From the NCBI GenBank assembly GCA_963802675.1, contig CAWDJL010000005.1:361193-425192 (forward strand): a DNA stretch of 64,000 bases. The letters run 5' to 3'. Position numbers and translations under genes: made by a program. Source of the DNA: an uncultured Acidobacteriota bacterium (GTDB lineage Bacteria; Acidobacteriota; Vicinamibacteria; Vicinamibacterales; UBA2999). The number at the start of each line of letters is the position of its first letter. The stretch's first letter is position 1. Positions 12,203-49,457 of the stretch are shown here, piece after piece. The notes beneath the pieces were generated by a model. The model was given only the letters and a program-made list of their open reading frames with translations, was not told where the DNA came from and made no database searches.

Positions 12203-12260
12203 CTCAGTCCTTCTGCCTTCTGCGCCGGGCTGCGCCTGACGTGGGCTCCACCGTTGGTGC

Positions 12261-12833: not shown

Positions 12834-12834
12834 G

Positions 12835-22500: not shown

Positions 22501-25500
22501 TCTCCATGTTCCAGTGCTCGGGCGCCGGCAGGCTCTTCTCGAAGAACCATTCCTGAATCGGCGTCAGCGAAACGCCATGGTCAGACGGGTCATCGGCCTC
22601 GACGTCGGGGGCTGTGGCGACGCGAGACGTTAACGCGCGAGCGAGCTCTGACACCGTGGGATGCTGAAACAAATCTCGCATACCCAGGCGGATACCCGAT
22701 TGCGCGGCACGGGACATCACCTGGATCGCGATAATCGAATCGCCGCCCATCTCGAAAAAGTTGTCATGGACACCGACCGAGCTGACGCGAAGCTGCTCTG
22801 CCCAGATGGCGGCCAGCCTCGCCTCGAGCTCGGCGTGAGGCGACTCGCCATCGACCACGGGATGGGCAGTGGCTTCTTGGCTTGGATCAAGGAACTCGAG
22901 AATTCGACGAGTGGTCGTGAGATCTGTGGCGATGCGCTGATACACGGATGAATCAGCGGGCCGGCGCCCGACATCGCCAGGGGGTGGCAGCGAGCGCTCG
23001 CCCGGTTCCGGTTCCTCTGATGGCGCCCAGCTGGCGGGTTTCAATGGCAGATCGCAGGCGGCCGCCGTCTCCAGCACAAACACGGTGGTCCCGGGTTCAC
23101 CGTCTCGTTTCTCGGCTTCGAGGGCCTCGGCAAATGCGAGTGCCGGCGTATTGCGGGCGGTGCGGCGAAACGGCAGCTCAACGTACGCGAGCTGCTCGGT
23201 CGCCGCCAATCGCCCAATGTGTTTGATGACCTCTCGTTCCACTCCTTTTCCCAAGACGCGGCAACTCAAGAGAAGCGTATCGACGACGAGCGCCCGGCGC
23301 GCCCGGTCGACGCGTGTGATCACCGCGCCAACGAGTCCGTAATCCCCAAAACGATCGCGCACATCCACCACTTCGATGACGGCTCCGTCAGTGGCCAACG
23401 CGCGCAGCTCGGCCTCGGATCGTCGAAAGGTCGTGAAGTTGAACTGGTTGGTGCGCTCGGTCATCTGCGCCGTTCGCGGCAACTGCTGCGGCGTCATCGG
23501 CGCGATTGTGATCTGAAGATCCAGCGTCTCCAGAAACGCCTCGAGGCTCATCCCGCTGTGCTGAAGCTGGCGACGGGCCACCTCTTGCTTGTACATCGCA
23601 CTGCGGCGCTTGTCTTCCTCGGTCTTTCGCCCTTGATCGAGCCGCCACAAGTGCTGCGTAAAGCCGGCCGCCTGGCGGTCATTGGTGGGCCACTGCAGCG
23701 TGACGACCTCAGGCGTCCGGTTCCGAACCTCTGCGCACTCGACCGGGTTGTCGTCGATGAATACAAAGCTGTCCAATCCGAGGTTCAACTCGCCGGCCAG
23801 ATCCTGCAGGTTCTGAGACTTGGGCTGCCAGTTGATTCGCGACGCCAGCACGTGCTCACGCTTCAGGATCATGTCCGGATGCGTGTCGAAGACGGCCCAG
23901 ACATCGGCCGGCTCGTTCTTGCTACACAGACCGATCAGCACGCCGGCGTCGTGTTGCGCGACCAGGTATCGCTGCAGCGCCGCATGTGGGCCGTCGATCG
24001 TCACGCCCCCAGCCCCGTCTTCCGCGCAGACGCCAGCCCACAAGGTATTGTCGCAGTCGACGCTGACGACCTTGGCAGGAATCCTCAGGCGGGCATGGGC
24101 CGCGCGCGCGACCAGCGTCGCGAGCAGCGCGTTTCCGGACGCCGTATATGGCATGTGCCCGAGCTCGTCGCCGCGAGCGTCGTAATAATCCGGGCACTCG
24201 TAGGTCGCGAGCGACTCGAGCCCTGATATCACCGGGATCCCGACCGAGGCGAGCCGTTCCCTGAGAGTCGCTTCGTTTCGCGCGATCACCGCAATCGACT
24301 CCGGATCGGCCGTCATGAAGGAAGACGGCGGACACGTGATCACGACTGAGGGTGACGCGGTGCGCGGAACGGCGGCGAGCACGGCATCGGCAAAATCACC
24401 GGCGTTGCGGTCGATCTGTTCGAACCGAGTTCGTCGGGCCGCGATATCGGCCGCACGATAGGCAGGGCGGGTGGCGAACAGGTTCCAGACGCCCGTGCTT
24501 CGCAGATCCTGCTCTTCTTCCACCACGACATCGAAGCCGTGCCGCTCGAGTAGCGCGACTGAAGCTGGGATCGCATCACCCCGGTCGTGAATCTCCATCA
24601 CGACCTGCTGAACCTTGCTCCAGTCGTCGTCGTCGATGCCGGCGATGAGCGCCAGCTCGCTCTTTTCGACGTCGATCTTGAGAAGGTCGATCGTCCCGAG
24701 GGCTTCGCTGCGGAGCACGTCGCTCAGGCGGCAAACCGGACGCACCAGCCGTTCTCGAGCGAGCCTTTGAGCTACGAGATGAGCGGACAGCTCCGTCGCT
24801 ACCTTCTGGTCAACCGCCAGCCCGCCGTCGCGTGCTAGGGACGTTTGAATGGCGTCGCGAAGGAACGCCGCGTCCTCGGTGTCGTCGGCCTCGAAGCCCG
24901 AGACGACCGAGAAGTTTTGATAGTAGGTGAAGGCGGCCTCGCCGTTTCGGTCGGCCAGACCGCACTCGAAGACTTTGAGATCGAGATCATGGAGCACGGC
25001 GTTGGCCCGCAGAAGGTTGGCGACGGTCGGGCTCGGTTCGAACGCGAGGATGCGCGGGCGTCGGCAGGCGAGTGACGCGAAGAGCGAGAACATCCCGATG
25101 TTCGCGCCGGCGTCGACGATTATCGCGCCGTCCTTCAGCGTCACGCCGTGCCGCAGATAGGCTCGGTTGACGAACAACTCTCGATACAGGTGCTCGGTCT
25201 CGTCACGATTCAGGTGAGCGACTTCGAGGCCGTTCGGGAGCCGGTACCGCGGCAGCTCGCGAGTGGCAGCGGGAGCAATTTCAGCGGAGGAGTGAGCGAC
25301 TCGATGGTTTCCCCGCATCCAGTCCTCGAAGCGCACCAGCAGCACGTTGAGCCCCTGATTGCGCGCCAGCAGCGTCTGTCCGTCGAGCAACTGCTGGAAC
25401 ACCTGGTTGTAGGGCGCAAACGTGACCTCCGCATCCAGGCCCAGCGTCGCCAACCAGGAGGTGAGGACCGGTGCTAGGGGTTCAGCGGTGAACGTGGCTG

Positions 25501-25546
25501 CTATGGCGAGCGTCGAGCGCGTTTGCATGCGAACCGAGTCTTCCAC
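19511..25546 (-). CDS. NRPS-type loading/condensation megaprotein: FkbH N-lobe / FkbM methyltransferase / FkbH HAD-IIIC core - T - E - C - T (no A domain)
   Basis: aa 1-80: LAIAATFTAEPL..APYNQVFQQLL..LLVRFEDW. aa ~100-345: IVDAGANIGMFSLF..ILAFEPSP..IDLLKIDVEKSE (FkbM). aa ~490-800: VVSVDCDNTLW..GLCSKN..FIDDNP..RFGDYGLVG..LSCRVLG (FkbH). T1: DNFFEMGGDSIIAIQ. E: all seven core motifs (LTPIQEWFF, HHLVIDGVS, NDVLLAAL, EGHGRE, RTIGWFTTIFPV, PSRGIGYG, FNYLGQ). C: ALSPIQDLF, FHHLIIDGWS. T2: ENFFDLGGQSLLM. Confidence 0.9.
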   Translation of the reverse strand: MEDSVRMQTRSTLAIAATFTAEPLAPVLTSWLATLGLDAEVTFAPYNQVFQQLLDGQTLLARNQGLNVLLVRFEDWMRGNHRVAHSSAEIAPAATRELPRYRLPNGLEVAHLNRDETEHLYRELFVNRAYLRHGVTLKDGAIIVDAGANIGMFSLFASLACRRPRILAFEPSPTVANLLRANAVLHDLDLKVFECGLADRNGEAAFTYYQNFSVVSGFEADDTEDAAFLRDAIQTSLARDGGLAVDQKVATELSAHLVAQRLARERLVRPVCRLSDVLRSEALGTIDLLKIDVEKSELALIAGIDDDDWSKVQQVVMEIHDRGDAIPASVALLERHGFDVVVEEEQDLRSTGVWNLFATRPAYRAADIAARRTRFEQIDRNAGDFADAVLAAVPRTASPSVVITCPPSSFMTADPESIAVIARNEATLRERLASVGIPVISGLESLATYECPDYYDARGDELGHMPYTASGNALLATLVARAAHARLRIPAKVVSVDCDNTLWAGVCAEDGAGGVTIDGPHAALQRYLVAQHDAGVLIGLCSKNEPADVWAVFDTHPDMILKREHVLASRINWQPKSQNLQDLAGELNLGLDSFVFIDDNPVECAEVRNRTPEVVTLQWPTNDRQAAGFTQHLWRLDQGRKTEEDKRRSAMYKQEVARRQLQHSGMSLEAFLETLDLQITIAPMTPQQLPRTAQMTERTNQFNFTTFRRSEAELRALATDGAVIEVVDVRDRFGDYGLVGAVITRVDRARRALVVDTLLLSCRVLGKGVEREVIKHIGRLAATEQLAYVELPFRRTARNTPALAFAEALEAEKRDGEPGTTVFVLETAAACDLPLKPASWAPSEEPEPGERSLPPPGDVGRRPADSSVYQRIATDLTTTRRILEFLDPSQEATAHPVVDGESPHAELEARLAAIWAEQLRVSSVGVHDNFFEMGGDSIIAIQVMSRAAQSGIRLGMRDLFQHPTVSELARALTSRVATAPDVEADDPSDHGVSLTPIQEWFFEKSLPAPEHWNMEISARAARPIDPGLLQQALVAVMPHHAALRFRFAPAESGWQQRLDPSPPPQLVETVDLTGLSQIRQQEAMREHAARTHASLNLSSGPLIRVVLFRLGASLSQILIVVHHLVIDGVSLRILVGDLETAYRHLAQGLAIRLPAASTTYARWARRLRSYAQSAELASQRDYWASVFDPAVPPLPVDHPSQRHEGRESDLEITPSLLTPEETQRLLQDLPRVLQTQINDVLLAALAQAFYQWSGHATLLVDLEGHGREALFDDLDLSRTIGWFTTIFPVRLQGDISDSRDALLAARAALRRIPSRGIGYGLLRYLSPDQACRSKLAESPSPDVMFNYLGQFDRASSPDTLFEIHDNVDFGPLHGPRGKRSHLFEIIARVVGGRLRLDWMYPRTAYRGESVARLIELYQAALRKAIALTEVSPGLVVSTAQPPAIDQIASGRAVEEVCALSPIQDLFLAAVSAGSSVGMDQWRLTLRGALDEALFRRAWHQTVQSHSIFRTAFAVEGLAQPRQVVLPEASLEWHYEDWRHLDDLTRRAALDAFAERDRHRPIRLDRAPLMRIAVFRASDTESYLLWTFHHLIIDGWSCPLVFADVGAAYQGLTTGNTGTNPSPPTRYSDYVRWLADQPTYESDEFWRRTLTGVTEPTPLPAALSASPARADGRAEVSDALDVGDTSALMDLTRRGRVSLNTFVQLAWALVLSRHSGKRDVTFGVAFSGRPTELPGVERIVGPFVNNLPVRVTVDPSVTAVAAGQAVQEFQFELTKHQFTPLATILGLAARSTTGRLFDSLLVLQGYTAADALRRFGSQLDVCELNAPVQTNYPLTILAVPGEQLRVTIIARDGTYDQPSLQMILRDLTEALKGLSTPSLTVADVMARLSAPRAMRVSAKTARLRKQHPSPPRPGLETQIAAIWKRAFGLDDIGADENFFDLGGQSLLMIQVHRDLRDVMQQDLSIVTMFQFSTIRELAQHLGRPKDEPENSRIADRAKRQSAALARHRLRLK

Positions 25547-26187
25547 CGATCATAACCACCGACAACCGCCCTCGATAAGTCCACAGGACGTCATGCGTGA
25601 TTGTCCCATGGTTGAGCAAAACGATGGCCAAGCCGCGTTTGCGGTCCCGCGCGCGCCCATGCGTGGCCCACGATGCGGAAAATGTTGCGATTTCCGGTGC
25701 TCTCGAGGGCGCGGCCCCCGGCGCGAAGCGATGGGTCTTACTTTTGCAAACCGGGCGGACGCCATGCCGTAGACGGTTGAATGTTGAAGCCAGTGGTTGG
25801 CGCATTCGTGACTTTTATCTGCCGCACGGCCGACAATCGCGCTCCCCAGGCCCCCGGGCACGTGGGCTGCGCATATCGTCGGTCATCCGTTGCTTCGAGG
25901 CGTGCCACGGCCGTTTATCGACAGGTCGAACGTCTGCCTGAAAAGATCGTCGCGCCTGTGTCGCGCGCCAAGGCTGCGCCGGAACGTGTGCGTCTGTGCA
26001 GGCGAGCAGCATTTAGCGCAAGTTGCTTCTGGGCAGACCCGGAATGCCGTCTACTAACGCCACGTTCGGCGGCTCTCTTGCACTATCCGCTGTGCCAGTC
26101 GTCGGGTGTCAAAATGTCGAATGATGCGTGCACGTCCGTCGTCAAGTACACTCGAAGACACCGTCTCTGACCAGCAAAGGCTTACGA
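25547..26187. promoter_or_regulatory. 640-bp divergent non-coding region between the two biosynthetic operons (presumed bidirectional promoter/leader region)
   Basis: No protein-like ORF appears in any frame; all ORFs here are R/A/P-rich. The region is flanked by divergent start codons at 25546 (-) and ~26188 (+). No promoter motifs could be assigned by eye. Confidence 0.3.
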
Positions 26188-28089
26188 GTGAGCACGACCT
26201 CCGAATCCCTCGTCGAGGGTATCGCCATCATTGGCGCCGTGGGGCGTTTCCCCGGCGCGTCAGACCTCGGTCAGTTCTGGGCCAATCTCACGGCCGGGGT
26301 CGAATCCGTCAGCGTGTTGACCGACGCGCAGCTGACGGAGTCGGGGTTCGACCCGCAGCAGCTCCGCGCCGATCCTCGGTATGTTCCGGTCCGCGGCATC
26401 ATCGAGCGCGCCGAGTGGTTCGATGCCGCCTTCTTTGCGTTCACGCCGCGCGAAGCCCAGCTCACCGATCCGCAGCACCGCCTTTTTCTCGAAGCCGCAT
26501 GGGAAGCGCTTGAAAGCGCCGGCTGTGATCCCTCGCGCAGCAAGGGTGCGATCGGCGTGTTCGCGGGTTGCGGTAACAATACGTGGGCGCGTCGATACTT
26601 CGCGCGAGACCTCGACGATCTCGAGTCGGGGGAGTGGCTGGAGTCGGCGATCGGCAACGAGAAGGACTACGTCGCCACCCGTGTCGCCTACAAGCTCAAT
26701 CTGCGTGGCCCCGCCGTCAATGTCAACACCGCCTGTTCGACCTCACTCGTCGCAGTGTGCCAGGCGTGTCAGGCGCTGTGGACCTACCAATGCGATGTCG
26801 CGCTCGCCGGCGGCGTGAACGTGAGCTTCCCACAGGGCCGTGGCTACTACCACGACGATGAGGGCATCTCGTCGCCGGATGGCCACACCCGCGCGTTTGA
26901 CGTCGATGCGCGCGGCACCGTGTTCAGCAACGGCCTGGGCGTCGTGGTGCTCAAACGGCTCGGCGAGGCGCTCGAAGACGGCGACGAAATCCTTGCCGTC
27001 ATTCGAGGCGCGGCCATCAACAACGACGGCTCTGGGAAGGCAAGCTTTACGGCGCCGAGCGCCGACGGGCAAGCGGACGTCGTAGCGCTGGCGCAGGCGA
27101 TGGCCGGCGTATCACCGGACAGCGTGTCGTATGTCGAGACCCACGGCACGGCCACGCCGATTGGCGACGTGATTGAGCTGGCCGGGCTCACGAAGGCGTT
27201 TCGACTGGGAACGGCGAGGACGCAGTTCTGCGCCATCGGCTCGGTCAAGTCCAACATCGGTCACGTCGAGCACGCCGCTGGCGTGGCGGGCCTGATCAAG
27301 ACCGCGTTGGCGCTGCAGCATCGACAGATTCCCCCAAGCCTCCACTACACGCAGCCGAACCCGAAACTGCAGGTGTCGTCGAGTCCGTTCTTCGTCAACC
27401 ATTCGCTGCGCGAATGGAGCAATGTCGACTCGCCGCGTCGCGCCGGGGTCAGTTCCTTTGGCGTCGGCGGGACGAATGCCCATGTGGTTCTCGAGGAGGC
27501 GCCTCCTCGTCCGCCTTCGGGTCCGTCTCACCCCTGGCATCTGCTGCCGCTGTCGGCGAAAACCGGAGCCGCGCTGGATGGGGCATCGTCGGCGCTGGCC
27601 GACTTTCTGAGAAGTCATCCCGAAACGCAGCTTGCCGACGTTGCTTTCACGTTGCAGCGAGGACGATCGTCGTTCGACTTTCGTCGTGCGGTGGTTGCGA
27701 GATGTCCGAAGGAAGCCAGCGCAATCCTGAGTGGTGAGGTGCCGGGAAAGAGCATCGGGCCCGAACGCGCAGGCGATCGCGAGGTCATTTTCATGTTCCC
27801 CGGCGGCGGCGCGCAGTATTGCGGTGCCGCGCGAGGTTTGTATTCGCAGCTCCCCGAATTCAAACAGCAGGTTGACGCCTGCCTGGGCGCTATGGATGCG
27901 CGAATCGCCGCGGCAGTGAGCCGACTGATGCTGGTCGCGCCTGAAGAGGTCACCGTCACCGACCGCGAGCTCGCCGAACGTCCATCAGTCGGCCTGCCGA
28001 TGCTGTTCGCGATCGAGTTTGCCACGGCCCAGGTACTGGCTTGCGCGGGGCGTGAAGCCAGCTGCGCTCATCGGGCACAGCCTGGGTGA
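26188..28089 (+). CDS. Hybrid PKS-NRPS, fragment 1: KS plus N-terminal part of AT (frame lost inside the AT domain)
   Basis: IAIIGAVGRFPGA, DPQHRLFLE, VNTACSTSLVAV (Cys ~26734), ETHGTATPIGD, SNIGHVEHAAG = KS. VIFMFPGGGAQY..LFAIEFATAQVLA = AT start. Likely GTG start at 26188 (AAAGG 8 nt upstream); the ORF track starts at 26128. The listed frame ends 13 codons after a G4 run at 28047-28050. Confidence 0.9.
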   Translation: MSTTSESLVEGIAIIGAVGRFPGASDLGQFWANLTAGVESVSVLTDAQLTESGFDPQQLRADPRYVPVRGIIERAEWFDAAFFAFTPREAQLTDPQHRLFLEAAWEALESAGCDPSRSKGAIGVFAGCGNNTWARRYFARDLDDLESGEWLESAIGNEKDYVATRVAYKLNLRGPAVNVNTACSTSLVAVCQACQALWTYQCDVALAGGVNVSFPQGRGYYHDDEGISSPDGHTRAFDVDARGTVFSNGLGVVVLKRLGEALEDGDEILAVIRGAAINNDGSGKASFTAPSADGQADVVALAQAMAGVSPDSVSYVETHGTATPIGDVIELAGLTKAFRLGTARTQFCAIGSVKSNIGHVEHAAGVAGLIKTALALQHRQIPPSLHYTQPNPKLQVSSSPFFVNHSLREWSNVDSPRRAGVSSFGVGGTNAHVVLEEAPPRPPSGPSHPWHLLPLSAKTGAALDGASSALADFLRSHPETQLADVAFTLQRGRSSFDFRRAVVARCPKEASAILSGEVPGKSIGPERAGDREVIFMFPGGGAQYCGAARGLYSQLPEFKQQVDACLGAMDARIAAAVSRLMLVAPEEVTVTDRELAERPSVGLPMLFAIEFATAQVLACAGREASCAHRAQPG

Positions 28090-31000
28090 GTACGCGGCAG
28101 CGTGCCTGTCCGGCGTCATGGCGCTGAACGATGCGGTCGCACTGGTGCAGCTGCGTGGGCGCTTGTTCGATGAGCTTCCCGCCGGGGCGATGTTGAGTAT
28201 CGGCGCCGCCGCGGATCGCGTCACACCGTACCTCGAAGTTGGGCTTGACGTCGCGGTCATCAACGGACCGGCATCGTGTGTCGTCTCGGGACGAACGGAC
28301 CAAATCGGGGCGCTGGCCGAACGGCTCGAGCGCGACGGCCTCGAGACCGTGCGGCTTCATATTGCGGTCGCGGCGCACTCGTCGCTCGTTGAGCCGATTT
28401 TGCCGGCGTTTCGATCATTCGTCAGCGGATTGCGCTTGCATGCGCCGCGGATCCCCATCGTGTCGAACGTCACGGGAACCTGGTTGGGCGATTCGCAGGC
28501 CGTGAATCCCGACTACTGGGTCGATCACCTTCGACGCACGGTCCGGTTCTCGGAAGGCCTGCAGTCTCTCTTCACGAAGCCGAACGCTGCCTTCGTCGAG
28601 GTCGGCCCTGGTCGTGTGCTGTCCACGATCACCCGGGCACATCCCGACCGACCGTCGTCGGTGATCGCAATCGAGTCGATGAGGCACCCGCAGGATTCGC
28701 GCGACGACTATGAGGCGCTACTGGCCGCTCAGGCCCGATTGTGGGTCAACGGCGTGGCTGTGGACTGGGAACGAGAGTATCGCGACGAAACGCGACGCCG
28801 GGTTGCACTGCCAACGTATCCTTTTGAGCGACAGTTCTTCGGTCCTGTCGGGCGGACGACCGCGCTTGAGCCGAGTCAGATCATGCCGACAGCGGTCGTT
28901 CGGGGCCCTGCGTCGTTGCCGCAACCGCCGGGACTCTCCTTGACCGCGCCGGATCGCCGGGAACGGATCGCAAACAAACTCTGCGACATTCTTCACGAGC
29001 TGTCGGGGCTCGATCGGGCGACGCTGCTGGGAAGAGCCACCTTCATCGAACTGGGGTTCGATTCGCTCTCGTTGACCCAGGTGTCGCAGCTCGTGCTGCG
29101 TGAGTTCCGCGTGCGCGTCAAGTTCCGTCACCTGCTCGACACGCTGCCGACGGTACCTGCCTTGGCCGCGCACCTCGACGGTGAGATGCCACCTGAGGCG
29201 CCAGCGCCGTCGGTTGCTTCCTCGGAGGTGGTGTCCTCTACACTAACTGCGATGACACGGCTGCCCGACGCGGCGGCGATGCTATCAAAGACACCCAACC
29301 CTCCAGCGTTCGTTCAGGAGGTAATACGGCAGCAGCTTGCGTTGATGACCCAGCAGATCGCCGTCTTGCAGGGAGCAGCAACGGCGGCGCCGCCGAGTTC
29401 GCCTCCAGACCGTCCGACCGTTGCACTTACCCGTGTTCAGGATCGGCCGCTTGACGCCGGTGGCCTCGGGGCGGTCGCATCGCTGGGCCGGCTCAAGCCG
29501 GAGCTGTTGACGTCTCAGCAGCGCCGTTACCTGGCGGAGCTGATCGAGCGCTACACGTCCAGAACGGCGAAGTCCAAGGAGCTGACCCAACGCTTCCGGC
29601 CCCGCCACGCGGACCCGAGAACCGCATCCGGCTTCACTGGGCTGTGGAAGGAACTGGTTTATCCAATCGTGGTTTCGCGCTCCGGCGGCTCCCGGCTCTG
29701 GGACGTCGACGGCAACGAATACATCGACCTTCTCTGTGGATTCGGTCCGACGTTCCTCGGACACGGTCACGAGGTCATCGTCGAGGCCATCAATCAACAA
29801 CTGGCGCGCGGCTTTGAGCTTGGGCCGCAAACCCCCTTGGCGGGAGAGGTAGCCGACCTGTTCTGTGACTTGACCGGCCAGGAGCGTGTGAGCTTTGTCA
29901 ATACGGGCTCTGAAGCGGTGCAGGCGGCCTTGCGCCTTGCGCGAACCGTTACCGGCCGGACGAAAGTAGCGACGTTCACGCGGGATTATCACGGCAACTT
30001 CGACGAGATGTTGGTACGTGGGCTGCGGCGCGGCAACGAGCCGCGAACGGTTCCCTCCGCTCCTGGGATCCCGCAGCGGGCGGTCGACGACGTCATCGTG
30101 CTCGATTACGGCACGGAGGAGTCGCTGGAGTTCCTGAAGCGCTCGGCCCACGAGCTGGCCGCGATCGTGGTCGAACCCATACAGAGTCGACGACCGGAAT
30201 TCCAGCCGCGAGAGTTCCTGCAGGCACTCCGTGCCCTGACGCTGACGTCCGAGACTTTGTTGGTCTTCGACGAGGTCGTGACCGGACTCCGGATCGGTCC
30301 CGGCGGCGCCCAGGCACATTTCGGGATCCAGGCGGACCTGGCCACTTACGGCAAGGTGCTAGGCGGCGGCATGCCGATTGGAGCAGTGGCCGGACGTGCC
30401 GAGTTCATGGACACGTTCGACGGCGGCCAATGGCAATACGGCGATGAGTCGATGCCGGTCAAGCCGGTCACGTTCTTCGCCGGAACATTTGCGCGGCATC
30501 CCCTGGCAATGGCCGCTGCAAAGGCCACACTCACGTACCTCAAGGCAGGTGGACAATCGCTGTGGGACGGCCTGAACACGCGCAGCGACGGGCTGGCCGA
30601 CGCACTTGATGCAATCTGTCGGCGTGAGGGCATCCCGGTCCGGGTTCCGCACTTCCGTTCGATGATGTACCCGTATATCGAAGAAGGCCACGGGCTCGCA
30701 TACCTGCTTTTCTATGAGCTTCGGACGCGCGGCCTTTACTTGCACGAACCCTATCCGTGCTACCTGAATCTCGCGCACTCGGACGACGACATCGCCAGGG
30801 TAATCGCGGAGTTCGAGGCTGCCGTTTCGTGTCTGCGAGCCAATGGCGTGTTCGAGCGAATGCAATCGCCCGCAATGTTAGGCGATCCGGCGAGTGCAGG
30901 ACGCGGGCGTCCGGCGGCTCCTGCCGAGTCCGAGAGCAGTGCGCCGCCTTCTCTCGTCGTCAACGCAGCAGCGACTGAGGCCGCGACCGCGCCAGCGGAC

Positions 31001-34000
31001 CGTCGATCGGGCGAGGTATTCGTCTGTGACGCGTCCCTGATGCAGGAAGGGCTCTGGTTCATCGACCAGACGGTTCCGCTGCGGGCCACGTACAACATTC
31101 CAGTGGCGTTCGAGCTGCGCGGGCGCGTTGATTGGGTCGCATTTCAAAGGGCTGTTGACGACCTGGTGGAACGCCACGGGACGCTTCGCACGTCGTTTAC
31201 CGCGCGCGATGGTGCCCCACTCCAAGTCATCTCACCGGCCACGAAGGTTACGGTCGAGTACCGAGAAATCAGCGACAGCCCTACCGCGAGTGCCGAGGTT
31301 CACGCGTTGGTCCAGGCCGAAGCCGAGCAACCTTTCGATCTCGCGGTCGCGCCGTTGCTTCGAGTCAAGGCCTTTTCGCTATCAGACGTGCAGCATCTGG
31401 TCAGCTTCGTTTTCCACCACATCATCGTCGACGGGTGGTCGATCGGCGCCTTTTTCAAAGAGTTTGCTGCTGCGTATGCCGCGCGCGCCGCGGGCCGTCG
31501 CCCGGAGCTGCCGCCCGTCGCAGTCGACTATGCCGACTTTTCGATCTGGCAGCGCCAGCATCTGACCAACGAAGTGCAAGAGGCCCAACTCGATTACTGG
31601 CGCGAAACGCTGACCGGCGCGCCCGATTCCCTGGAGCTGCCGACGGATCGACCACGGCCGAAGCTCTCGTCCGGCGGCGGATGGACGGAGTGGTTCACCA
31701 TCGACGCCAAGACGACCACGATTCTCCGTGAGCTTTGCCGTCGAGAACAGACGACGATGTTCATGGCCGTCGTAAGTGTCATCGACGTTCTGCTCGCGCG
31801 CCACACGGGCGTGTACGACATCGTGGTCGGGTCGCCGATGGCAGGCCAGGTGGCCCAAGACGTCGAGAACACCCTTGGGTTCTTTGTCAACACCCTCGCG
31901 TTACGGACCAGGTTTTCGCCCGACGTCACCTTTCGCGAGCTGCTCGGTCGCACGAGAGCAACGACGCTCGGCGCGTATGAGAACGCAGACGTCCCGTTTT
32001 CTCAGGTGGTCGGAGCCGTCCGGCCAGAACGCGTGGCTGCCACCAATCCGCTGTTTCAGGTCATGTGCACTTTCGAAGCCGCGCCGGACGAGCTGCTGAG
32101 CCTGCCGGGCCTGGGGGTGCGGCCATACAACGTCAGCAGCGGGACTTCGAAGTTCGATCTTCTGTTCGATTTCCAGGAGCACCGGGAGGTCATCGAGGCA
32201 ACGCTCGAGTACAGCAGCGACCTTTTCGACGTCGGGGCGGGTCAGCGATGGGTTCAGCGATTCTTGACCTTGGCCGGAGCCGCCGCCCGCCAGCCCAATG
32301 TGCCTGTTTCAGCCTTGACGCTGATGCCGCCGGCCGAGCGCGACCAGATTCGTCAGTGGAGTGTCGCGGCTGCTGGAGAGGACTCCGGTCCCCCCCGAAC
32401 CTGGGCCTCGCTGCCCGACGCGTTCGACCAGCAGGCCAAGCAGACGCCCGAGGCTTCGGCGCTGGTCATGGGTGAGCGCGCGATGACCTACGGCGAGCTC
32501 AGGGAGCGTTCGAATCGAGTGGCACGGTATCTCGATCGGGTGGGTGTCGCCCGCGGCCATGCGGTCGGTTTGTGCATGGATCGATCGTTCGATCTGGTTG
32601 TGGCGCTGCTCGGGATTCTCAAGGCAGGTGCCGCCTACGTGCCGCTGGATCCCAACTACCCCGCGCAGCGTCTGACGCTGATGGCCGGTGACGCTGCCTT
32701 GAACGTCATTCTCGCCGACGGCACGGTCAAGACGGACTGGGCGGATCGAGCCGTTCGTGTCGTCCGCCTCGATGCCGACTGGCCGCTGATCAGCGGCAAA
32801 GAAGCCGAACCCCCGCAGCGGGACCTCACCGGCGCCGATCTCGCGTACATCATCTACACCTCGGGATCGACGGGGCAACCGAAAGGTGTGGCAATGTCAC
32901 ATGCGCCACTGCTGAACCTGCTGCAGTGGCAACTCGCCCGTTCCGCCGCTGGGCGTGGTGCGCGGACGCTGCAGTTTGCGCCCATCAGCTTCGATGTCTC
33001 GTTTCAGGAAATCTTCGCAACCCTCTGCAGCGGCGGGTCACTGGTCCTGATCGACGATGATGGTCGTCGAGATTCCCAGAGACTGCTGTCCACGCTGCGG
33101 GACCAGCATGTCAATCGACTCTTCCTGCCTTTCGTCGCGCTGCAGGCCTTGTGCGAAGCGGCGCAGTCGTCCGGCGTTATGCCGTGTGATCTGACCGAGG
33201 TGATCACGGCCGGTGAACAACTTCAGATCACGACGAGCGTCACGGCCTTCTTCGCATCGCTCGCGCGATGCTCGCTGGACAATCAATACGGGCCGACCGA
33301 AAGCCACGTCGTTACGGCTCACCGCCTCGAGGGCGCGCCGAAATCATGGCCACTGCTGCCGCCGATTGGCCGCCCAATCGCTAACGCTCGTGCATATGTG
33401 CTTGACGATCGTATGACGCCCGTCCCGATTGGCGTGCCGGGCGAGATCTACCTCGGCGGAGCCGTGTTGGCACAGGGCTACTACGGCAAGCCCGAGCTGA
33501 CCGCCGAAAGATTCTGTTTCAGCCCGTTCGAGCCAGGAATCCGGTTGTACCGGACCGGCGATGCCGCTCGTTGGCGGCCCGACGGCGCCCTGGAGTTCCT
33601 CGGCCGGTTGGATAGTCAGATCAAGATCAGAGGCCACCGGGTCGAGTTGAGTGAGATCGAAGCGATTCTCTGCACGGTACCCGGGATTGAGAGCGCCGTC
33701 GTCAGCGTCATCGGTAACGATGCCGTCACGCGCCGGCTGGTCGGATATGTGGTCTCACCGGCCGGCTCAGTCGATCCGGAAACCATTCGTCAGCATCTCC
33801 GGCTGAAACTTCCCGAGTACATGGTCCCGGCGATTTTCGTCGGGCTCGATCGCCTGCCACGGACGCCGAACGGCAAGATCGACCGCCGGTCGCTGCCTGC
33901 ACCACTTCCCAGTGTCCGCGAGCTCCCGCCGGTTGAGCGCCCGGCGGATCCAATCGAGGAACGCATAGCAACGATCTTCCGCGACGTGCTGAATGACGGG

Positions 34001-34255
34001 GAGGTCGGTCGTCACGACAACTTCTTCGATCGTGGCGGCCATTCACTCCAAGTGATGAGGGTACTGTCGCGAGTCCGGGACCTCGAGGGCGCCGAGGTGA
34101 CGGTTCAGGAATTCTTCGCAGCCCCGACTGTCGCCGGTCTCGCCGAGGCGACGCGCCGGATGGGGCGTTCGGTCCTGTCGGCGCCGATAACGCGTATCCA
34201 AAGGAGCCGATCAGACGGGGACCGCTCTCGGAATTTACCCTCCGCACGTGAATAG
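28019..34255 (+). CDS. Hybrid PKS-NRPS, fragment 2: AT (continued) - ACP - class III aminotransferase - C - A (Pro-like) - T
   Basis: GVKPAALIGHSLGEY (AT Ser), VAAHS specificity region (~28367). ACP: LGFDSLSLTQ (~29063). AMT: DLLCGFGPTFLGH, FVNTGSEA, VFDEVVTG, ATYGKVLGGGMPIG (Lys ~30353). C: LMQEGLWFID, FHHIIVDGWS (~31415). A: AYIIYTSGSTGQPKGV, NQYGPTESH, YRTGDAARW, NGKIDRRSLP. T: DNFFDRGGHSLQV. Continues fragment 1 if one G is removed at 28047-28050. Confidence 0.9.
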   Translation: MPRPRYWLARGVKPAALIGHSLGEYAAACLSGVMALNDAVALVQLRGRLFDELPAGAMLSIGAAADRVTPYLEVGLDVAVINGPASCVVSGRTDQIGALAERLERDGLETVRLHIAVAAHSSLVEPILPAFRSFVSGLRLHAPRIPIVSNVTGTWLGDSQAVNPDYWVDHLRRTVRFSEGLQSLFTKPNAAFVEVGPGRVLSTITRAHPDRPSSVIAIESMRHPQDSRDDYEALLAAQARLWVNGVAVDWEREYRDETRRRVALPTYPFERQFFGPVGRTTALEPSQIMPTAVVRGPASLPQPPGLSLTAPDRRERIANKLCDILHELSGLDRATLLGRATFIELGFDSLSLTQVSQLVLREFRVRVKFRHLLDTLPTVPALAAHLDGEMPPEAPAPSVASSEVVSSTLTAMTRLPDAAAMLSKTPNPPAFVQEVIRQQLALMTQQIAVLQGAATAAPPSSPPDRPTVALTRVQDRPLDAGGLGAVASLGRLKPELLTSQQRRYLAELIERYTSRTAKSKELTQRFRPRHADPRTASGFTGLWKELVYPIVVSRSGGSRLWDVDGNEYIDLLCGFGPTFLGHGHEVIVEAINQQLARGFELGPQTPLAGEVADLFCDLTGQERVSFVNTGSEAVQAALRLARTVTGRTKVATFTRDYHGNFDEMLVRGLRRGNEPRTVPSAPGIPQRAVDDVIVLDYGTEESLEFLKRSAHELAAIVVEPIQSRRPEFQPREFLQALRALTLTSETLLVFDEVVTGLRIGPGGAQAHFGIQADLATYGKVLGGGMPIGAVAGRAEFMDTFDGGQWQYGDESMPVKPVTFFAGTFARHPLAMAAAKATLTYLKAGGQSLWDGLNTRSDGLADALDAICRREGIPVRVPHFRSMMYPYIEEGHGLAYLLFYELRTRGLYLHEPYPCYLNLAHSDDDIARVIAEFEAAVSCLRANGVFERMQSPAMLGDPASAGRGRPAAPAESESSAPPSLVVNAAATEAATAPADRRSGEVFVCDASLMQEGLWFIDQTVPLRATYNIPVAFELRGRVDWVAFQRAVDDLVERHGTLRTSFTARDGAPLQVISPATKVTVEYREISDSPTASAEVHALVQAEAEQPFDLAVAPLLRVKAFSLSDVQHLVSFVFHHIIVDGWSIGAFFKEFAAAYAARAAGRRPELPPVAVDYADFSIWQRQHLTNEVQEAQLDYWRETLTGAPDSLELPTDRPRPKLSSGGGWTEWFTIDAKTTTILRELCRREQTTMFMAVVSVIDVLLARHTGVYDIVVGSPMAGQVAQDVENTLGFFVNTLALRTRFSPDVTFRELLGRTRATTLGAYENADVPFSQVVGAVRPERVAATNPLFQVMCTFEAAPDELLSLPGLGVRPYNVSSGTSKFDLLFDFQEHREVIEATLEYSSDLFDVGAGQRWVQRFLTLAGAAARQPNVPVSALTLMPPAERDQIRQWSVAAAGEDSGPPRTWASLPDAFDQQAKQTPEASALVMGERAMTYGELRERSNRVARYLDRVGVARGHAVGLCMDRSFDLVVALLGILKAGAAYVPLDPNYPAQRLTLMAGDAALNVILADGTVKTDWADRAVRVVRLDADWPLISGKEAEPPQRDLTGADLAYIIYTSGSTGQPKGVAMSHAPLLNLLQWQLARSAAGRGARTLQFAPISFDVSFQEIFATLCSGGSLVLIDDDGRRDSQRLLSTLRDQHVNRLFLPFVALQALCEAAQSSGVMPCDLTEVITAGEQLQITTSVTAFFASLARCSLDNQYGPTESHVVTAHRLEGAPKSWPLLPPIGRPIANARAYVLDDRMTPVPIGVPGEIYLGGAVLAQGYYGKPELTAERFCFSPFEPGIRLYRTGDAARWRPDGALEFLGRLDSQIKIRGHRVELSEIEAILCTVPGIESAVVSVIGNDAVTRRLVGYVVSPAGSVDPETIRQHLRLKLPEYMVPAIFVGLDRLPRTPNGKIDRRSLPAPLPSVRELPPVERPADPIEERIATIFRDVLNDGEVGRHDNFFDRGGHSLQVMRVLSRVRDLEGAEVTVQEFFAAPTVAGLAEATRRMGRSVLSAPITRIQRSRSDGDRSRNLPSARE

Positions 34256-34382: not shown

Positions 34383-37300
34383 ATGGCGAGCAAGGAGATT
34401 GCGGCGGCGCTAGAGGGAGTCGTAGAAGCGCCATGCTCGCTTCCGCAACGCCGGCTGTGGTTGTCGCACACCCTCTACGGTCAGCGTTCGTCGTACAACA
34501 TCCCCTTTATATATCGACTCGAAGGTGCCCTCGACGTCGGCAGGCTCCAACGCAGCTTGGATCGCGTGCTGGAGCGCCACGAAGTACTGCGCACGTTCTT
34601 TCGCCTGGAGAATCGAGACGTCGTCCAGGTCATCCAGCCGAAACTCACGGTCCCGATCACAGAGAAGGACCTCAACCAGATGCCGGTGGGCGAAGCAGTC
34701 AAGTCAGCCCTCGCGGCGGCGGCCATCGATGCCGCCATTCCGTTCGATCTCACCACGACGCCGCTCTTGCGAGCCACGCTTTATCGCCTGGGTGACCGCG
34801 ACCACGTGCTCGCATTCTGCGTTCATCACATCATTTTCGACGGCTGGTCCGAAGGCATCTTGTGGCGAGAACTCGCGGCGTTCTACGACGCCGACAGCGA
34901 GGCCTGCGGACTGGAGGAACTGGCGATTCAGTACGCGGATTTCGCGATCTGGCAGCGTGAGCACAGGGCTGGTGACGCCGCCGAGTCAAGCCATGCCTAC
35001 TGGAAGCGACAGCTCGCAGATGCGCCTGCTGTGCTGAATCTGCCGCTTGACGCGCCCCGGCCGGTCGAACCGTCGCATCGCGGTCGTCTGGAGGTCATGG
35101 ACGTTCCAGGGCCGGTAGTGCATGCGCTGGTCGCACTGGGCCGGAGGTATGGAGCCACGCTGCACATGATGCTGCTGGCGGCCTATAGCGTGGTCCTCCA
35201 TCGCTACTCGGGCGATCCGGAGGTCGTGATCGGCACGGCCTTGGCAGGGCGGACGCGTTCCGAGATCGAATCGTTGATCGGCTTCTTCATCAATACGGTG
35301 GCGGTACGCGCAGACCTTCGGGGCGAGCCAACCTTTGTCGATCTGCTCGAGCGCATCAAGCGCGTGATGCTCGAATCTCACGCCAATCAGGACGTGCCGT
35401 TCGAGGCTGTCGTTGAAATGTTGCACCCGGATCGCACGACCGGTCAGATTCCGCTGTTCCAGACGATGTTCGTGCTGCAAAACCATGAGGGCGCGCCCGT
35501 GTCCCTCGGAGAAGCGACGCTCTCGCCGCTCGAAGTGCACAACGGCAGCTCGAAGTGCGATTTGCTGTTGAGCATTCGCGCGGTGCTCGACGGCAGCAGC
35601 GGCATGGCCTGCTCGCTCGAGTACGACACGGACCTCTTCCGGCCGGCGACCGCCGTCAGACTGCTCGAAAGCTTCCGGTCCGTCCTGGTCGGCGTGATCG
35701 AGCGACCCAACCAGCGGATCGCGACACTCCCAGTCGTGTCGCCGAGCGAACGGGAGCTGTTGACCAGTTGGGGAAGGACGCCCGCGGAGTCTCCGCGCGA
35801 CTCGACGATTCACCGCGAATTTGCGGCGGCGGCTGCGCGGACGCCCCATGCGATTGCGGTGAGCGGCGAATCCGAATCGCTCACTTACGCGCAGCTCGAG
35901 ACGCGCGCCCATCAGCTGGCAGTGGTTCTGCGGCGCGAAGGGGTGCAGCGGGGAGATCTGGTGGCCATGTGCCTCGAGCGCGGGCTAACCCCGATCGTCG
36001 CCCAACTGGCGGTGCTGAAAACCGGTGGCGCGTATGTGCCACTGGACACGTCGTATCCTACGTCGCGGATTTCCTGCATCATCGAGGATGCCCAACCCCG
36101 GGTCGTGCTCGCGGAGCGTCGGACTGCCGACGTCGTTCCACCGTGTGACGCGCGCGTCATCCTCATCGACCAGGCTCTCACGCCCGTGCTCGCTTCCCCT
36201 GAGCCCTGGCCCGATGAAGGAAACGGCGAGGACCTCGCTTATGTAATGTACACGTCCGGGTCGACGGGGCGGCCCAACGGCGTCCGCGTTCCACATCGTG
36301 GTGTCTTGCGGCTCGTGCTGGGTTCGACCTACGTGGACTGGCGCAAGGCCACCACGTTCCTACAGATGGCCCCGCTGTCATTCGACGCCTCGACGTTTGA
36401 AGTCTGGGGTCCGCTGCTCCACGGCGCGCGGCTCGTGGTGTTTCCGGAACAGGTGCCGACAATACCCCGACTCGAGCAGGTTCTTCGGGAGGGAAAGGTC
36501 GACTGCTTGTGGCTGACGGCGGCACTCTTCAACTTCGTGATCGATGAGCGCCCCGAGTGCCTGGCGAGTGTCAGGCAGCTAATTGTCGGCGGTGAGGCGC
36601 TTTCGGTTCCGCATGTCATCCGATCGCAAGCCCGCCTGCCGTTCACGAAGTTGATCAACGGATATGGCCCCACGGAGTGCACCACGTTTGCGTGCTGCTA
36701 TCCGATCCCGCCGATCCCCGCCTCGGCGACGTCGATCCCGATCGGTCGTCCGATCGCGAACACGAGCGTACTGGTCCTTGATACCCACCGGCAAGTTGTC
36801 CCGGTCGGCGTGGTCGGCGAGCTTTACATCGGCGGCGATGGAGTAGCACTCGGGTATCACGACCGATCGGAGTTGACCGCGGCGCGGTTCGTTCCCGATC
36901 CGTCGGGCGACACCGGCGAGCGATGGTATCGCACCGGCGATCTGGTTCGTTGGTTGCCGGAGGGCGTCCTCGACTTCGTAGGCCGAATCGACTCACAGGT
37001 CAAGATGCGCGGCTTTCGCGTTGAACCAGGCGAGATCGAGGCCGTTTGTCGCCGCCATCACGCCGTCCGTGACGTCGTCGTGCTGCTGCACAAGCGCACG
37101 CCAACCGATGCACGCTTGGTGGCCTATGTCGCCACCGTCGACCACACTGCGGCCAGCGCTGCCGACATTCGTCAGTTCCTCGAGCAGCACTTGCCTCGTC
37201 AACTCATGCCAAGTGAGATCGTGCTTTGCGACGAGTTGCCGCTCACGCCGAATGGCAAGGTCGATCGCACCGCACTCCTCGCTCGGTCAGTCGCACCCGC

Positions 37301-41032: not shown

Positions 41033-41050
41033 GAGGGTTGCTCCGTTCGG

Positions 41051-41839: not shown

Positions 41840-42032
41840 AGAGAGCTTCTCCGATCCGCTTGCCAGGACACCCGTGAAGGGTTCGGCTAAGGAGAGCAAA
41901 GGCTGGACCAGTTGGGACGTCATCAATATGCGCGGAATTGACGCTAGCGGGCCGGCCATCGCGAGGGAAGCGGCCTGGAAAGGGGACGCCGGTCTTTGCC
42001 ACGTCTGAGCGGCGAGGTAGATTGAGGGCCAC

Positions 42033-43218: not shown

Positions 43219-43259
43219 TACGTCGGAACAGTCAGTCACCGACCTCCGTCGAAGTCTGA

Positions 43260-47293: not shown

Positions 47294-47336
47294 GTGATCA
47301 GCCTAGCAGGCCGTCGTGACCTTCCACCACGCGCTG

Positions 47337-48254: not shown

Positions 48255-48310
48255 AGCCTCACTGTAGATGGCGCGGACGCCTCACGGATCAGCCGATCGG
48301 CTAGGCTAGA

Positions 48311-49348: not shown

Positions 49349-49377
49349 CGCGTTGTGGAATCATGGAAACGCCGAAT

Positions 49378-49453: not shown

Positions 49454-49457
49454 CGAT

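What the first reader, a model, noticed from the sequence alone, without database searches (positions are those of the whole stretch)
26188..30860. Mycosubtilin/iturin-style KS-AT-ACP-aminotransferase (beta-amino acid) module without an acyl-ligase loader
Seen: the KS has an intact Cys/His/His. The AT has GHSLGE. An ACP follows, then a class III (GSA-aminomutase-like) aminotransferase domain with the GK PLP-lysine motif, fused to C-A-T. Established: this KS-AT-ACP-AMT-C-A-T order is how MycA/ItuA install the beta-amino fatty acid of iturinic lipopeptides, and McyE uses a similar AMT. Those proteins start with an acyl-AMP ligase plus ACP, which is absent here. The AT specificity region reads VAAHS rather than HAFHS (malonyl) or YASHS (methylmalonyl), so the extender unit is unclear. 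Inference: the KS is primed either by the T2 carrier of the divergent gene or by a primary-metabolism acyl-ACP.
Basis: partly seen in the sequence, partly recalled or inferred. Interest (0 to 1): 0.7.

Follow-up and report, generated by a model that had tools for sequence, protein, structure and literature searches.

The report
Glycerate-primed beta-amino acid PKS module
An uncultured Acidobacteriota genome carries a hybrid peptide-polyketide assembly line whose amine-installing module is related to the iturin/mycosubtilin one, but it seems to be started by a glycerate-loading protein rather than a fatty-acid ligase, and this copy is split by one extra base that is probably an assembly error.

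Summary
Three relatives (99, 93 and 65% identical) are intact there, and the window has two more 1-nt insertions in another gene, so an assembly error is likely.

Starting with the KS is ordinary: about 83 of 87 related AMT proteins do, and the layout was catalogued in 2013. What differs between lineages is the loader, which always ends in a carrier and usually abuts the KS gene. Here it is the divergent gene, FkbM-FkbH-T1-E-C-T2. In a 51%-identical relative the same loader lies directly upstream of the KS on the same strand, and all such loaders share a C-terminal basic tail. So T2 most likely primes the KS with a glycerate-derived acyl group, not a fatty acid.

The AT belongs to a rare subclass (7 of 88) in which three substrate-gating residues are replaced, so the extender cannot be assigned. 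What loads T2 is also unresolved.

Verdict: a new variant of a known kind, of moderate interest.

The parts
26188..34255 (+). Hybrid PKS-NRPS gene KS-AT-ACP-AMT-C-A-T. It is read in two frames in this window and becomes one 2688-aa ORF if the extra G at 28032 is removed.
28032..28032 (+). Single-base insertion (G) that shifts the frame inside the AT, 41 nt before the GHSLGE codons
26218..27348 (+). Ketosynthase domain. Cys codon in 26728-26745, His in 27142-27156 and 27253-27264.
27787..28648 (+). Acyltransferase domain of the rare VAAHS subclass. FPGGGAQ 27796-27816, GLPMLF 27991-28008, GHSLGE 28073-28090, VAAHS 28367-28381.
28949..29188 (+). ACP (GFDSL 29054-29068)
29519..30853 (+). MycA-type class III aminotransferase domain. 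The PLP lysine is in YGK at 30347-30355.
31034..34150 (+). NRPS module C-A-T. HHIIVDG at 31415-31435. A-domain code DVQFIAQVTK, proline-like.
34383..38450 (+). Termination module C-A-T-TE. A-domain code DAFWIGGTFK, valine-like.
19511..25528 (-). Loader gene: N-terminal region, FkbM methyltransferase (24587-25120), FkbH (23111-24076; DxDxT at 24038-24061), T1 (22631-22819), E (21227-22576), C (19907-21196), T2 (19514-19801). It has no A domain.
19526..19567 (-). C-terminal basic tail DRAKRQSAALARHR after T2. Loaders that sit directly upstream of KS-AMT genes in other lineages share it. Candidate docking element.
15334..19401 (-). Stand-alone C-A-T-TE in the loader operon. Its A-domain code DLTKVGHVGK (aspartate-like) is identical in L001 and in the 51%-diverged L004.
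39004..39696 (+). SAM-dependent methyltransferase that stays next to the cluster in L001, L002 and L003. Possible tailoring gene.

Best explanation
Window 26188-34255 encodes one hybrid protein, KS-AT-ACP-AMT-C-A-T, of an Acidobacteriota NRPS-PKS assembly line.

Proposed mechanism:
1. The divergently transcribed protein FkbM-FkbH-T1-E-C-T2 loads a glyceryl unit from a phosphoglycerate onto a carrier and probably O-methylates it. This rests on domain identity.
2. The protein processes the unit through its A-less E-C-T2 cassette (inferred; the exact cargo is unknown).
3. It presents an acyl thioester on T2.
4. T2 docks on the KS through a conserved C-terminal basic tail and primes it (inferred from synteny and conservation).
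5. The KS condenses this starter with an extender chosen by an atypical AT.
6. The MycA-type AMT converts the ACP-bound beta-keto thioester into a beta-amino thioester. This rests on close homology to the characterised MycA domain.
7. The chain passes to a proline-like module, then to a valine module with a TE.

The starter is therefore glycerate-derived and polar, not a fatty acid. The product would be a small peptide around a polyhydroxylated beta-amino acid, not an iturin-type lipopeptide. The 1-nt insertion at 28032 is most likely an assembly error. If it is real, this copy is a very recent pseudogene.
For: Domains and catalytic motifs.

AMT: the best solved relative is the MycA AMT, E 1.2e-132, full length, with the lysine aligned.

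FkbH: TIGR01686 scores 296.7 bits against a cut-off of 146.65, and the FkbM family domain scores 85.7 against 37.7.

Loader-to-KS link:
- The gene set is conserved in L001, L002 and L003.
- In L004 (KS-to-AMT region 51% identical) the order is FkbM-FkbH-T1-C-T2 then KS-AT-ACP-AMT-C-A-T-TE, all on one strand. The T2 ORF ends at 9992 and the KS gene starts at 10001.
- In four other lineages a carrier-ending loader abuts or overlaps the KS gene. These are A-T-sulfotransferase (L086), FkbH-T (L087) and C-A-T-E-C-T (L088, L089). In two more, an A-MT-T gene lies about 390 nt upstream (P0082) and FAAL-ACP is fused to the KS protein (L005).
- Five of the six loader ends compared share a C-terminal tail of the form RA(Q/K)xQxxAL(A/T)(R/Q)xR or a loose variant of it. 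L086 ends in a basic tail without the motif. The window's gene A carries the motif, and the pattern occurs only there in six frames.
- In an NJ tree the window KS groups with P0001-3 and P0018, which are the FkbM-FkbH-linked ones. Its sister group contains P0098, whose loader is C-A-T-E-C-T.
- L003 keeps KS at 87% and AT at 81% together with the loader, but its ACP and AMT are only 45-46% identical.

No adenylating loader in the window.

Frameshift as an artefact:
- Relatives are intact there.
- The window has two further 1-nt insertions in its MacB gene compared with L002.
- The 96%-related GTDB MAG L043 is riddled with frame breaks.
- pN/pS downstream of the shift is 0.37, against 0.26 and 0.30 for the neighbouring genes.

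FkbH as a glycerate loader in NRPS lines is described in PMC8949500 and PMC10099666.
Against: - No experiment or product exists, and the hand-off is inferred from gene order and a short conserved tail.
- In the window itself the loader is divergent, not collinear, and shares its operon with another C-A-T-TE that could equally receive the chain from T2.
- T2 has no cognate A domain, so its cargo is unknown.
- An intact E domain after a carrier expected to hold a 2-hydroxy acid has no precedent I could find.
- The NJ tree has no bootstrap support, and the KS is nearly equidistant (0.35-0.39) from many relatives.
- The AT substrate is unassigned.
- Raw reads were not available, so the frameshift may be real.
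Confidence: 0.6

Rival explanations
1. Iturin-like lipoinitiation. The KS is primed by a fatty acyl group from primary-metabolism acyl-ACP/CoA, or from a FAAL plus ACP encoded elsewhere in the genome. The product is then a beta-amino fatty acid lipopeptide, and the FkbH protein feeds only the other C-A-T-TE.
For: The AMT is the closest solved relative of the MycA AMT. Some relatives do carry a fused FAAL-ACP (P0029/L005, P0119). The loader gene shares an operon with its own C-A-T-TE, so two separate lines can be imagined.
Against: There is no FAAL or free ACP in 64 kb, nor in L001-L004. L004 places T2 immediately before the KS on one strand. Gene A carries the tail motif shared by loaders of KS-AMT genes. 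No relative examined lacked a carrier-ending loader upstream of, or fused to, the KS.
Confidence: 0.13
2. The module is dead in this organism. The insertion at 28032 is genuine, translation stops at 28089 before the AT serine, and the region is a recent pseudogene.
For: The sequence as given has the frameshift. The context CAG[G]TAC is not a long homopolymer.
Against: Relatives at 99, 93 and 65% identity are intact at this site. The window has two more 1-nt insertions in an unrelated gene. A closely related MAG shows many frame breaks typical of uncorrected long reads. Constraint downstream of the shift is no more relaxed than in neighbouring genes. All catalytic motifs downstream are intact.
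Confidence: 0.27
3. The FkbH protein makes a carrier-linked extender unit (hydroxy- or methoxymalonyl) that the atypical AT transfers to the ACP, as ZmaA-AT does. It would not supply the starter.
For: [quoted passage not shown] FkbH makes the glyceryl-carrier precursor of such units, and an O-methyltransferase is fused to it. ZmaA-AT is the second-best PDB hit.
Against: The window holds no FkbK/FkbI-type dehydrogenases to oxidise glyceryl to hydroxymalonyl. Two other VAAHS clusters (L086, P0082) have no FkbH within 10 kb. This reading leaves the E-C-T2 cassette, the tail and the priming of the KS unexplained. A canonical HAFHS AT also hits ZmaA best, so global similarity carries no information. 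The window keeps GHSLG rather than GYSFG.
Confidence: 0.08

Closest known systems
MycA / ItuA (mycosubtilin and iturin synthetase subunit A, Bacillus)
   Same: The KS-AT-ACP-AMT-C-A-T order is the same. The AMT is the nearest solved relative (6KFM/6KFR/6KFU, E 1.2e-132) with the same PLP lysine context. The expected chemistry, beta-keto thioester to beta-amino thioester, is the same (PMC3870968).
   Different: There is no fused acyl-AMP ligase plus ACP. The loader is a separate FkbM-FkbH-T-E-C-T protein, so the starter should be glycerate-derived rather than a fatty acid. The AT has VAAHS instead of the malonyl HAFHS.
KS-first AMT proteins: KS-AT-CP-PLP and KS-AT-CP-PLP-C-A-CP layouts tabulated by Milano et al. 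2013, with many cyanobacterial and Verrucomicrobiota homologues
   Same: The gene begins with the KS, and a separate carrier-ending loader is encoded upstream.
   Different: 80 of 88 AMT-linked ATs are HAFHS. The loaders found are FAAL-ACP, A-T or C-A-T-E-C-T, not FkbM-FkbH, except in this family and L087.
FkbH-containing NRPS modules (vioprolide, cystomanamide, corramycin)
   Same: An FkbH domain stands in place of an A domain and puts glycerate on a T domain of an NRPS line (PMC8949500, PMC10099666). Cystomanamide also combines a glycerate unit with a 3-amino fatty acid (PMC9581180).
   Different: In those systems FkbH sits in C-FkbH-T modules after a FAAL or inside the peptide, and the beta-amino acid is fatty-acid primed. 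Here FkbH is the first module, is fused to an FkbM methyltransferase, and feeds the AMT module itself.
SpnD-AT (splenocin, AAAH motif, benzylmalonyl; PDB 5YDA/5YDL/5YDM) and ZmaA-AT (GAAH, hydroxymalonyl-ACP; 4QBU)
   Same: These are the best two PDB hits for the AT (211.8 and 202.8 bits). Both have an xAAH motif, SpnD-AT also has GGG in place of GQG, and in SpnD-AT the Gln of the RVDVVQ motif is replaced. PMC6164871 names these positions (Q150, H/Y278, F/S280) as gatekeepers for bulky extenders.
   Different: The window holds no extender-supply genes (CCR or dehydrogenases). A canonical malonyl-type AT from the same family hits the same two structures even more strongly, so kinship alone does not predict the substrate.

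Membership tests
MycA/ItuA-type beta-amino fatty acid initiation subunit | KS-AT-ACP-AMT followed by C-A-T in one protein | tested here: met
   Pfam order. One ORF after removing the extra base. Intact in P0001.
MycA/ItuA-type beta-amino fatty acid initiation subunit | GSA-aminomutase-like AMT homologous to the MycA AMT, with the PLP lysine | tested here: met
   6KFM E 1.2e-132, residues 2-448 aligned, tYGKvlGGG aligned to tYGKiiGGG
MycA/ItuA-type beta-amino fatty acid initiation subunit | N-terminal fatty acyl-AMP ligase plus ACP that loads the fatty acid | tested here: not met
   The KS starts about 10 residues from the start codon. The window has only three adenylation domains, all in C-A-T modules.
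MycA/ItuA-type beta-amino fatty acid initiation subunit | Malonyl-specific AT (HAFHS and GQG/TQP glutamines) | tested here: not met
   VAAHS, FPGGGAQ and GLPMLF. 80 of 88 AMT-linked ATs have HAFHS.
MycA/ItuA-type beta-amino fatty acid initiation subunit | Product is a cyclic lipopeptide closed through the beta-amine | not testable with these tools
   No product is known. Only two downstream amino acid modules are present.
FkbH-type glyceryl loading module | FkbH domain above the curated cut-off, with the HAD DxDxT motif | tested here: met
   TIGR01686 296.7 bits against 146.65. TIGR01681 59.5 against 35.75. VDCDNTLW at 24038-24061.
FkbH-type glyceryl loading module | Carrier domain directly downstream of FkbH | tested here: met
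   T1 at 22631-22819, GGDSI at 22733-22747
FkbH-type glyceryl loading module | Actual loading of glycerate from 1,3-bisphosphoglycerate or 3-phosphoglycerate | not testable with these tools
   Needs an enzyme assay. Inferred from family membership and PMC10099666.
Broad-specificity or alpha-substituted-extender ATs (SpnD/AntD AAAH, ZmaA GAAH) | Small residues at the three gatekeeper positions (RVDVVQ Gln, and first and third residues of the YASH/HAFH motif) | tested here: met
   Gln to Leu (GLP), His to Val, Phe to Ala. Positions named in PMC6164871.
Broad-specificity or alpha-substituted-extender ATs (SpnD/AntD AAAH, ZmaA GAAH) | Closer to these ATs than canonical ATs of the same family are | tested here: not met
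   Control HAFHS AT (P0098): ZmaA 264.8 and SpnD 241.5 bits, higher than the window's 202.8 and 211.8
Broad-specificity or alpha-substituted-extender ATs (SpnD/AntD AAAH, ZmaA GAAH) | Cluster-encoded supply of an unusual extender (CCR, or FkbK/FkbI-type dehydrogenases) | tested here: not met
   None among the ORFs scanned across the window. Three nearby ORFs have no family assignment.

The most novel reading that the evidence does not exclude
This is the founding example of an uncharacterised assembly-line logic. An FkbM-FkbH loader, an A-less E-C-T cassette and a non-malonyl AT together build a polyhydroxylated, possibly alpha-substituted beta-amino (or beta,gamma-diamino) acid. In this reading one loading domain charges two carriers, or an A domain acts in trans. 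An E domain epimerises a 2-hydroxyacyl thioester. The VAAHS AT has a specificity not yet described.
Probability: 0.2. Interest if true: 0.65.

Novelty: new variant of a known kind. Interest (0 to 1): 0.45.

Why it matters
The AMT module is best known as the device that makes the beta-amino fatty acid of iturin-class antifungals. The comparison here shows that the same KS-AT-ACP-AMT-C-A-T core is combined in nature with at least six different loaders: FAAL-ACP, A-T, A-MT-T, FkbH-T, FkbM-FkbH-T-(E)-C-T and C-A-T-E-C-T. These loaders connect through carriers, most of which carry a common C-terminal tail. That gives a natural plug-and-play interface for making varied beta-amino acids.

The window adds a glycerate-started version from Acidobacteriota, a phylum with very few characterised natural products. 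It also adds an AT subclass (VAAHS) whose substrate is unknown.

On the practical side, the gene as deposited is frameshifted. Any automated annotation or synthesis of this cluster should check position 28032 first.

Tried and rejected
1. My first repair of the frameshift removed a G from the GGGG run at 28046-28049. It gave an open frame, but the relatives show the real difference is the extra G at 28032, reading QYWLARGV rather than QVLACAGV.

2. I first took the top PDB hits of the AT (SpnD-AT, ZmaA-AT) as evidence for an unusual extender. The control with a canonical HAFHS AT from the same family gave the same two top hits with higher scores. A second VAAHS AT gave the same two. I dropped that argument and kept only the residue-level differences.

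3. The RXR versus MXW carrier-recognition motif of PMC4207774 reads E-T-V here and is mixed among VAAHS ATs. It is uninformative.

4. KS phylogeny for starter versus peptidyl-accepting types: the NJ tree places the KS with other FkbM-FkbH-linked KSs. Distances to most relatives are flat (0.35-0.39), no curated reference set was available, and there is no bootstrap.

5. I searched the FkbM-FkbH loaders found in GTDB species genomes (581 relatives confirmed, the best 80 kept) for adjacent AMT modules. Only the close relative L043 has one within the 10-kb flanks. Many others lead into ordinary KS modules.

6. A literature search for VAAHS, and for FkbH together with AMT or with Acidobacteria, found nothing relevant.

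7. The left-flank glycosyltransferase and rhamnose genes look like a Wzy-type polysaccharide cluster. None of the relatives' loci reach beyond the stand-alone C-A-T-TE on that side, so there is no conservation evidence either way. I did not count them as part of the cluster.

Full report
**What is in the window.** The window has 63% G+C. Four large genes sit back to back:
- minus strand, 15334-19401: C-A-T-TE;
- minus strand, 19511-25546: a 2011-aa protein with an FkbM methyltransferase, two carrier domains and two condensation-type domains, but no adenylation domain;
- plus strand: KS-AT-ACP-AMT-C-A-T;
- plus strand, 34383-38450: C-A-T-TE.

NCBIfam resolves the second protein as N-terminal region, FkbM (residues 143-320), FkbH (491-812; 296.7 bits against a cut-off of 146.65), T1, an epimerisation-type domain (HHLVIDG, EGHGRE, TIGR01720), a C domain (HHLIIDG) and T2. 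A 96%-identical loader in the GTDB collection comes from an uncultured Acidobacteriota MAG (L043).

**Checking the observation.**
- KS: Cys, His and His;
- AT: GHSLGE and VAAHS;
- ACP: GFDSL;
- AMT: YGKVLGGG.

The AMT is not merely class III. Its best solved relative is the aminotransferase domain of mycosubtilin synthase MycA (6KFM/6KFR/6KFU, E 1.2e-132). The alignment runs end to end, with the lysine in the same TYGK-x-x-GGG context. GSA aminomutases come next, at about 1e-56.

ORF 26128..28089 stops 16 nt after the point where ORF 28019..34255 begins to encode GHSLGE. A 98.3%-identical contig (L002) and three database proteins (99, 93 and 65% identical over the KS-to-AMT region) are uninterrupted and read FATAQYWLARGVKPAALIGHSLGE. 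The window differs by one extra G at 28032.

**Is the frameshift real?** I could not see reads, so this is inference.
- Over the roughly 24 kb that align with L002, the only frameshifting differences inside genes are three 1-nt insertions. One is this one. The other two lie in the MacB-type permease gene (43519, 43603). That gene is an intact 839-aa ORF in L002 and is broken into three frames here.
- The related MAG contig L043 is fragmented by many such breaks.
- pN/pS between the window and L002 is 0.37 downstream of the shift. It is 0.26 and 0.30 for the loader gene and the terminal module.
- All catalytic motifs downstream are intact.

I put about 0.7 on an assembly error and about 0.27 on a very recent genuine lesion.

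**Is "no acyl-ligase loader" unusual?** No. Among the best 120 homologues of the KS-to-AMT region, 87 contain an AT followed by an AMT. About 83 of these begin with the KS, with the active-site Cys near residue 180. Only four have an adenylating domain or module fused upstream. A 2013 survey of PLP domains in assembly lines already lists KS-AT-CP-PLP and KS-AT-CP-PLP-C-A-CP-C layouts (PMC3870968). The window itself contains exactly three adenylation domains, all inside C-A-T modules, and no free ACP. Pfam scans of the flanks found only these:
- a Wzy, glycosyltransferase and rhamnose polysaccharide cluster;
- a SAM methyltransferase and a VanZ-like protein;
- three ORFs with no family assignment;
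- a MacB permease, HtrA proteases and a MoxR/BatA operon;
- TldD/PmbA paralogues.

**How the KS is primed.** I looked at the neighbourhoods of ten homologues. In every case a protein ending in a carrier domain lies upstream of the KS on the same strand or is fused to it. It usually abuts or overlaps the KS gene:

| Locus | Loader |
|---|---|
| L005 | FAAL-ACP, fused |
| L086 | A-T-sulfotransferase |
| P0082 | A-MT-T (gene about 390 nt upstream) |
| L087 | FkbH-T |
| L088, L089 | C-A(Thr code)-T-E-C-T |
| L004 | FkbM-FkbH-T1-C-T2 (T2 ORF ends 9992, KS starts 10001) |

L004 is 51% identical to the window over the KS-to-AMT region. Its loader aligns with the window's gene A along its whole length, apart from the E domain, which L004 lacks. 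The close relatives L001, L002 and L003 share the window's divergent arrangement.

Three further observations tie T2 to the KS.
- Tail: five of the six loader ends compared share a basic C-terminal tail, in exact or loose form. Examples are window DRAKRQSAALARHRLRLK, L004 TRAQLQIEALARQRRR, L088 DRAQRQRQALAQMR, L089 TRAQLARAALARQRK and L087 LRAQKQLRATRERAR. L086 ends in a basic tail without the motif. The pattern occurs once in the six-frame translation of the window, at the end of gene A.
- Carrier similarity: T2 is 42-54% identical to the pre-KS carriers of L088 and L089, but only about 35% identical to T1.
- Co-inheritance: in L003 the KS (87%) and AT (81%) stay with the FkbM-type loader while the ACP and AMT are only 45-46% identical. 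In L001 the sequence switches to an unrelated C-A-T right after the AMT.

An NJ tree of 174 KS domains groups the window with the other FkbM-FkbH-linked KSs. The next group contains P0098, whose loader is C-A-T-E-C-T. The tree has no support values and its distances are flat, so I give it little weight.

The second option, a primary-metabolism acyl-ACP, has nothing in its favour beyond the MycA analogy.

**What the starter is.** FkbH domains in NRPS lines stand in for A domains and place a glyceryl unit on the carrier. Vioprolide, cystomanamide and corramycin are the described cases (PMC8949500, PMC10099666). The fused FkbM-family methyltransferase suggests O-methylation. FkbM-FkbH fusions are common: the GTDB scan confirmed 581 relatives among the first 600 pattern matches, with more not read. 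Within the 10-kb flanks of the best 80 of these loci, only L043, a close relative of the window, has an AMT module nearby. L004 and L087, found through the protein search, are the more distant FkbH-linked cases.

The starter is therefore polar and glycerate-derived. The beta-amino fatty acid picture does not apply.

What T2 actually carries is unresolved, because the E-C-T2 cassette has no A domain. The same A-less cassette follows C-A(Thr)-T in L088 and L089. Either the single loading domain charges both carriers, which here would give an ester-linked diglycerate, or an A domain acts in trans. The extra stand-alone C-A-T-TE is a candidate partner, but its role is unknown. Its code DLTKVGHVGK (Asp-like) is identical in the window, L001 and L004. 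The A-domain codes were read against a GrsA-PheA sequence that I recalled from memory. Its numbering was self-consistent (K517 recovered), but treat the codes as approximate.

**The AT.** Of 88 ATs followed by an AMT, 80 have HAFHS, one has HGFHS, and seven have VAAHS: the window, P0001-3, P0018, P0082 and P0085. The VAAHS ATs also have FPGGGAQ in place of FPGQGAQ (P0082 reads FSGGGTQ). They have a hydrophobic residue in place of the Gln of the RVDVVQ/TQPALF motif. They keep the catalytic Ser, the His and the carboxylate-binding Arg.

The Gln position and the first and third residues of the HAFH/YASH motif are the three named as gatekeepers for bulky extenders in the work on the splenocin AT (PMC6164871). 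That AT has an AAAH motif and was solved with benzylmalonyl bound as 5YDM (PMC11907408). The hydroxymalonyl-ACP AT ZmaA has GAAH (PMC4207774).

These two are the window AT's best PDB hits. A control with a canonical HAFHS AT from the same protein family hits them even better. Overall kinship therefore says nothing about the substrate, and only the residue changes count.

In the KS tree the VAAHS proteins fall in three separate places. No CCR and no FkbK/FkbI-type genes are in the window.

My reading is that the pocket is enlarged, so an alpha-substituted malonyl unit is plausible, but malonyl cannot be excluded.

**Downstream steps.** The C domain after the AMT has HHIIVDG. The A-domain codes suggest a proline-like residue and then valine before the TE. 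In L001 the proline-like C-A pair has moved into an inverted C-A-T-TE gene, and a different C-A-T follows the AMT. The AMT/C junction near 30858 is therefore a recombination point.

**Comparison and verdict.** The module works like the MycA/ItuA AMT module and its AMT is a clear homologue. It fails two defining features of that family, the fused acyl-AMP ligase loader and the malonyl-type AT, so I do not file it as an iturin-type subunit. It is best described as a member of a widespread KS-first AMT core that accepts interchangeable carrier-ending loaders. Here the loader is an FkbM-FkbH glycerate loader and the AT belongs to a rare subclass.

I found no description of this combination in the searchable literature. 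That is a limited search, not proof of absence. I rate it a new variant of a known kind, with interest 0.45. The main caveats are that the mechanism is inferred from synteny and that the gene is frameshifted as deposited.

Noticed in passing
window 43239-45760 (insertions at 43519 and 43603): The MacB/FtsX-type permease gene is broken into three frames by two 1-nt insertions. In L002 it is an intact 839-aa ORF. This points to indel errors across the whole window.
   Followed up: partly
window 30906-30922: A 15-nt in-frame insertion relative to L002 in the linker between AMT and C (GRGRPAAPAE against GRAAE).
   Followed up: partly
window ~30858; L001 14670-22042; L003 4655-8116: Module shuffling at the AMT/C junction. 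L001 follows the AMT with an unrelated C-A-T and carries the window's proline-like C-A (77% nt identity) in an inverted C-A-T-TE gene. L003 keeps KS-AT at 81-87% identity but has a different ACP-AMT (45-46%).
   Followed up: partly
window 21227-22576 (E domain) after T1 22631-22819: A canonical-looking epimerisation domain (HHLVIDG, EGHGRE; T1 has the GGDSI signature of carriers that serve E domains) follows a carrier that should hold glycerate, a 2-hydroxy acid. The L004 homologue lacks this domain.
   Followed up: partly
L088 3681-10004; L089 3645-10004: The same A-less T-E-C-T cassette precedes KS-AT-ACP-AMT behind a C-A-T module with a threonine code (DFWNIGMVHK), in a Pedosphaera MAG (L089) and in assembly GCA_041490505.1 (L088). 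How the second carrier is loaded is unknown there too.
   Followed up: partly
window 39815-43040: Three ORFs (405, 339 and 335 aa) beside the cluster have no Pfam or NCBIfam match. The first is conserved next to the cluster in L001, L002 and L003, so it may be a tailoring or resistance gene of unknown type.
   Followed up: no
window 933-14921: A Wzy-type polysaccharide cluster on the minus strand. It holds an O-antigen ligase/polymerase-like gene, GT1/GT2/GT4 glycosyltransferases, two dTDP-4-dehydrorhamnose 3,5-epimerase genes, nucleotidyltransferases, epimerase/dehydratases and a flavin amine oxidase. It is probably unrelated to the NRPS-PKS genes.
   Followed up: no
window 55285-59965: Three consecutive TldD/PmbA-family metallopeptidase paralogues.
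   Followed up: no
window 45912-53613: Two HtrA-like trypsin-PDZ proteases, followed by a MoxR AAA ATPase, a DUF58/VWA protein, BatA and a DUF4175 protein (an aerotolerance-type operon).
   Followed up: no
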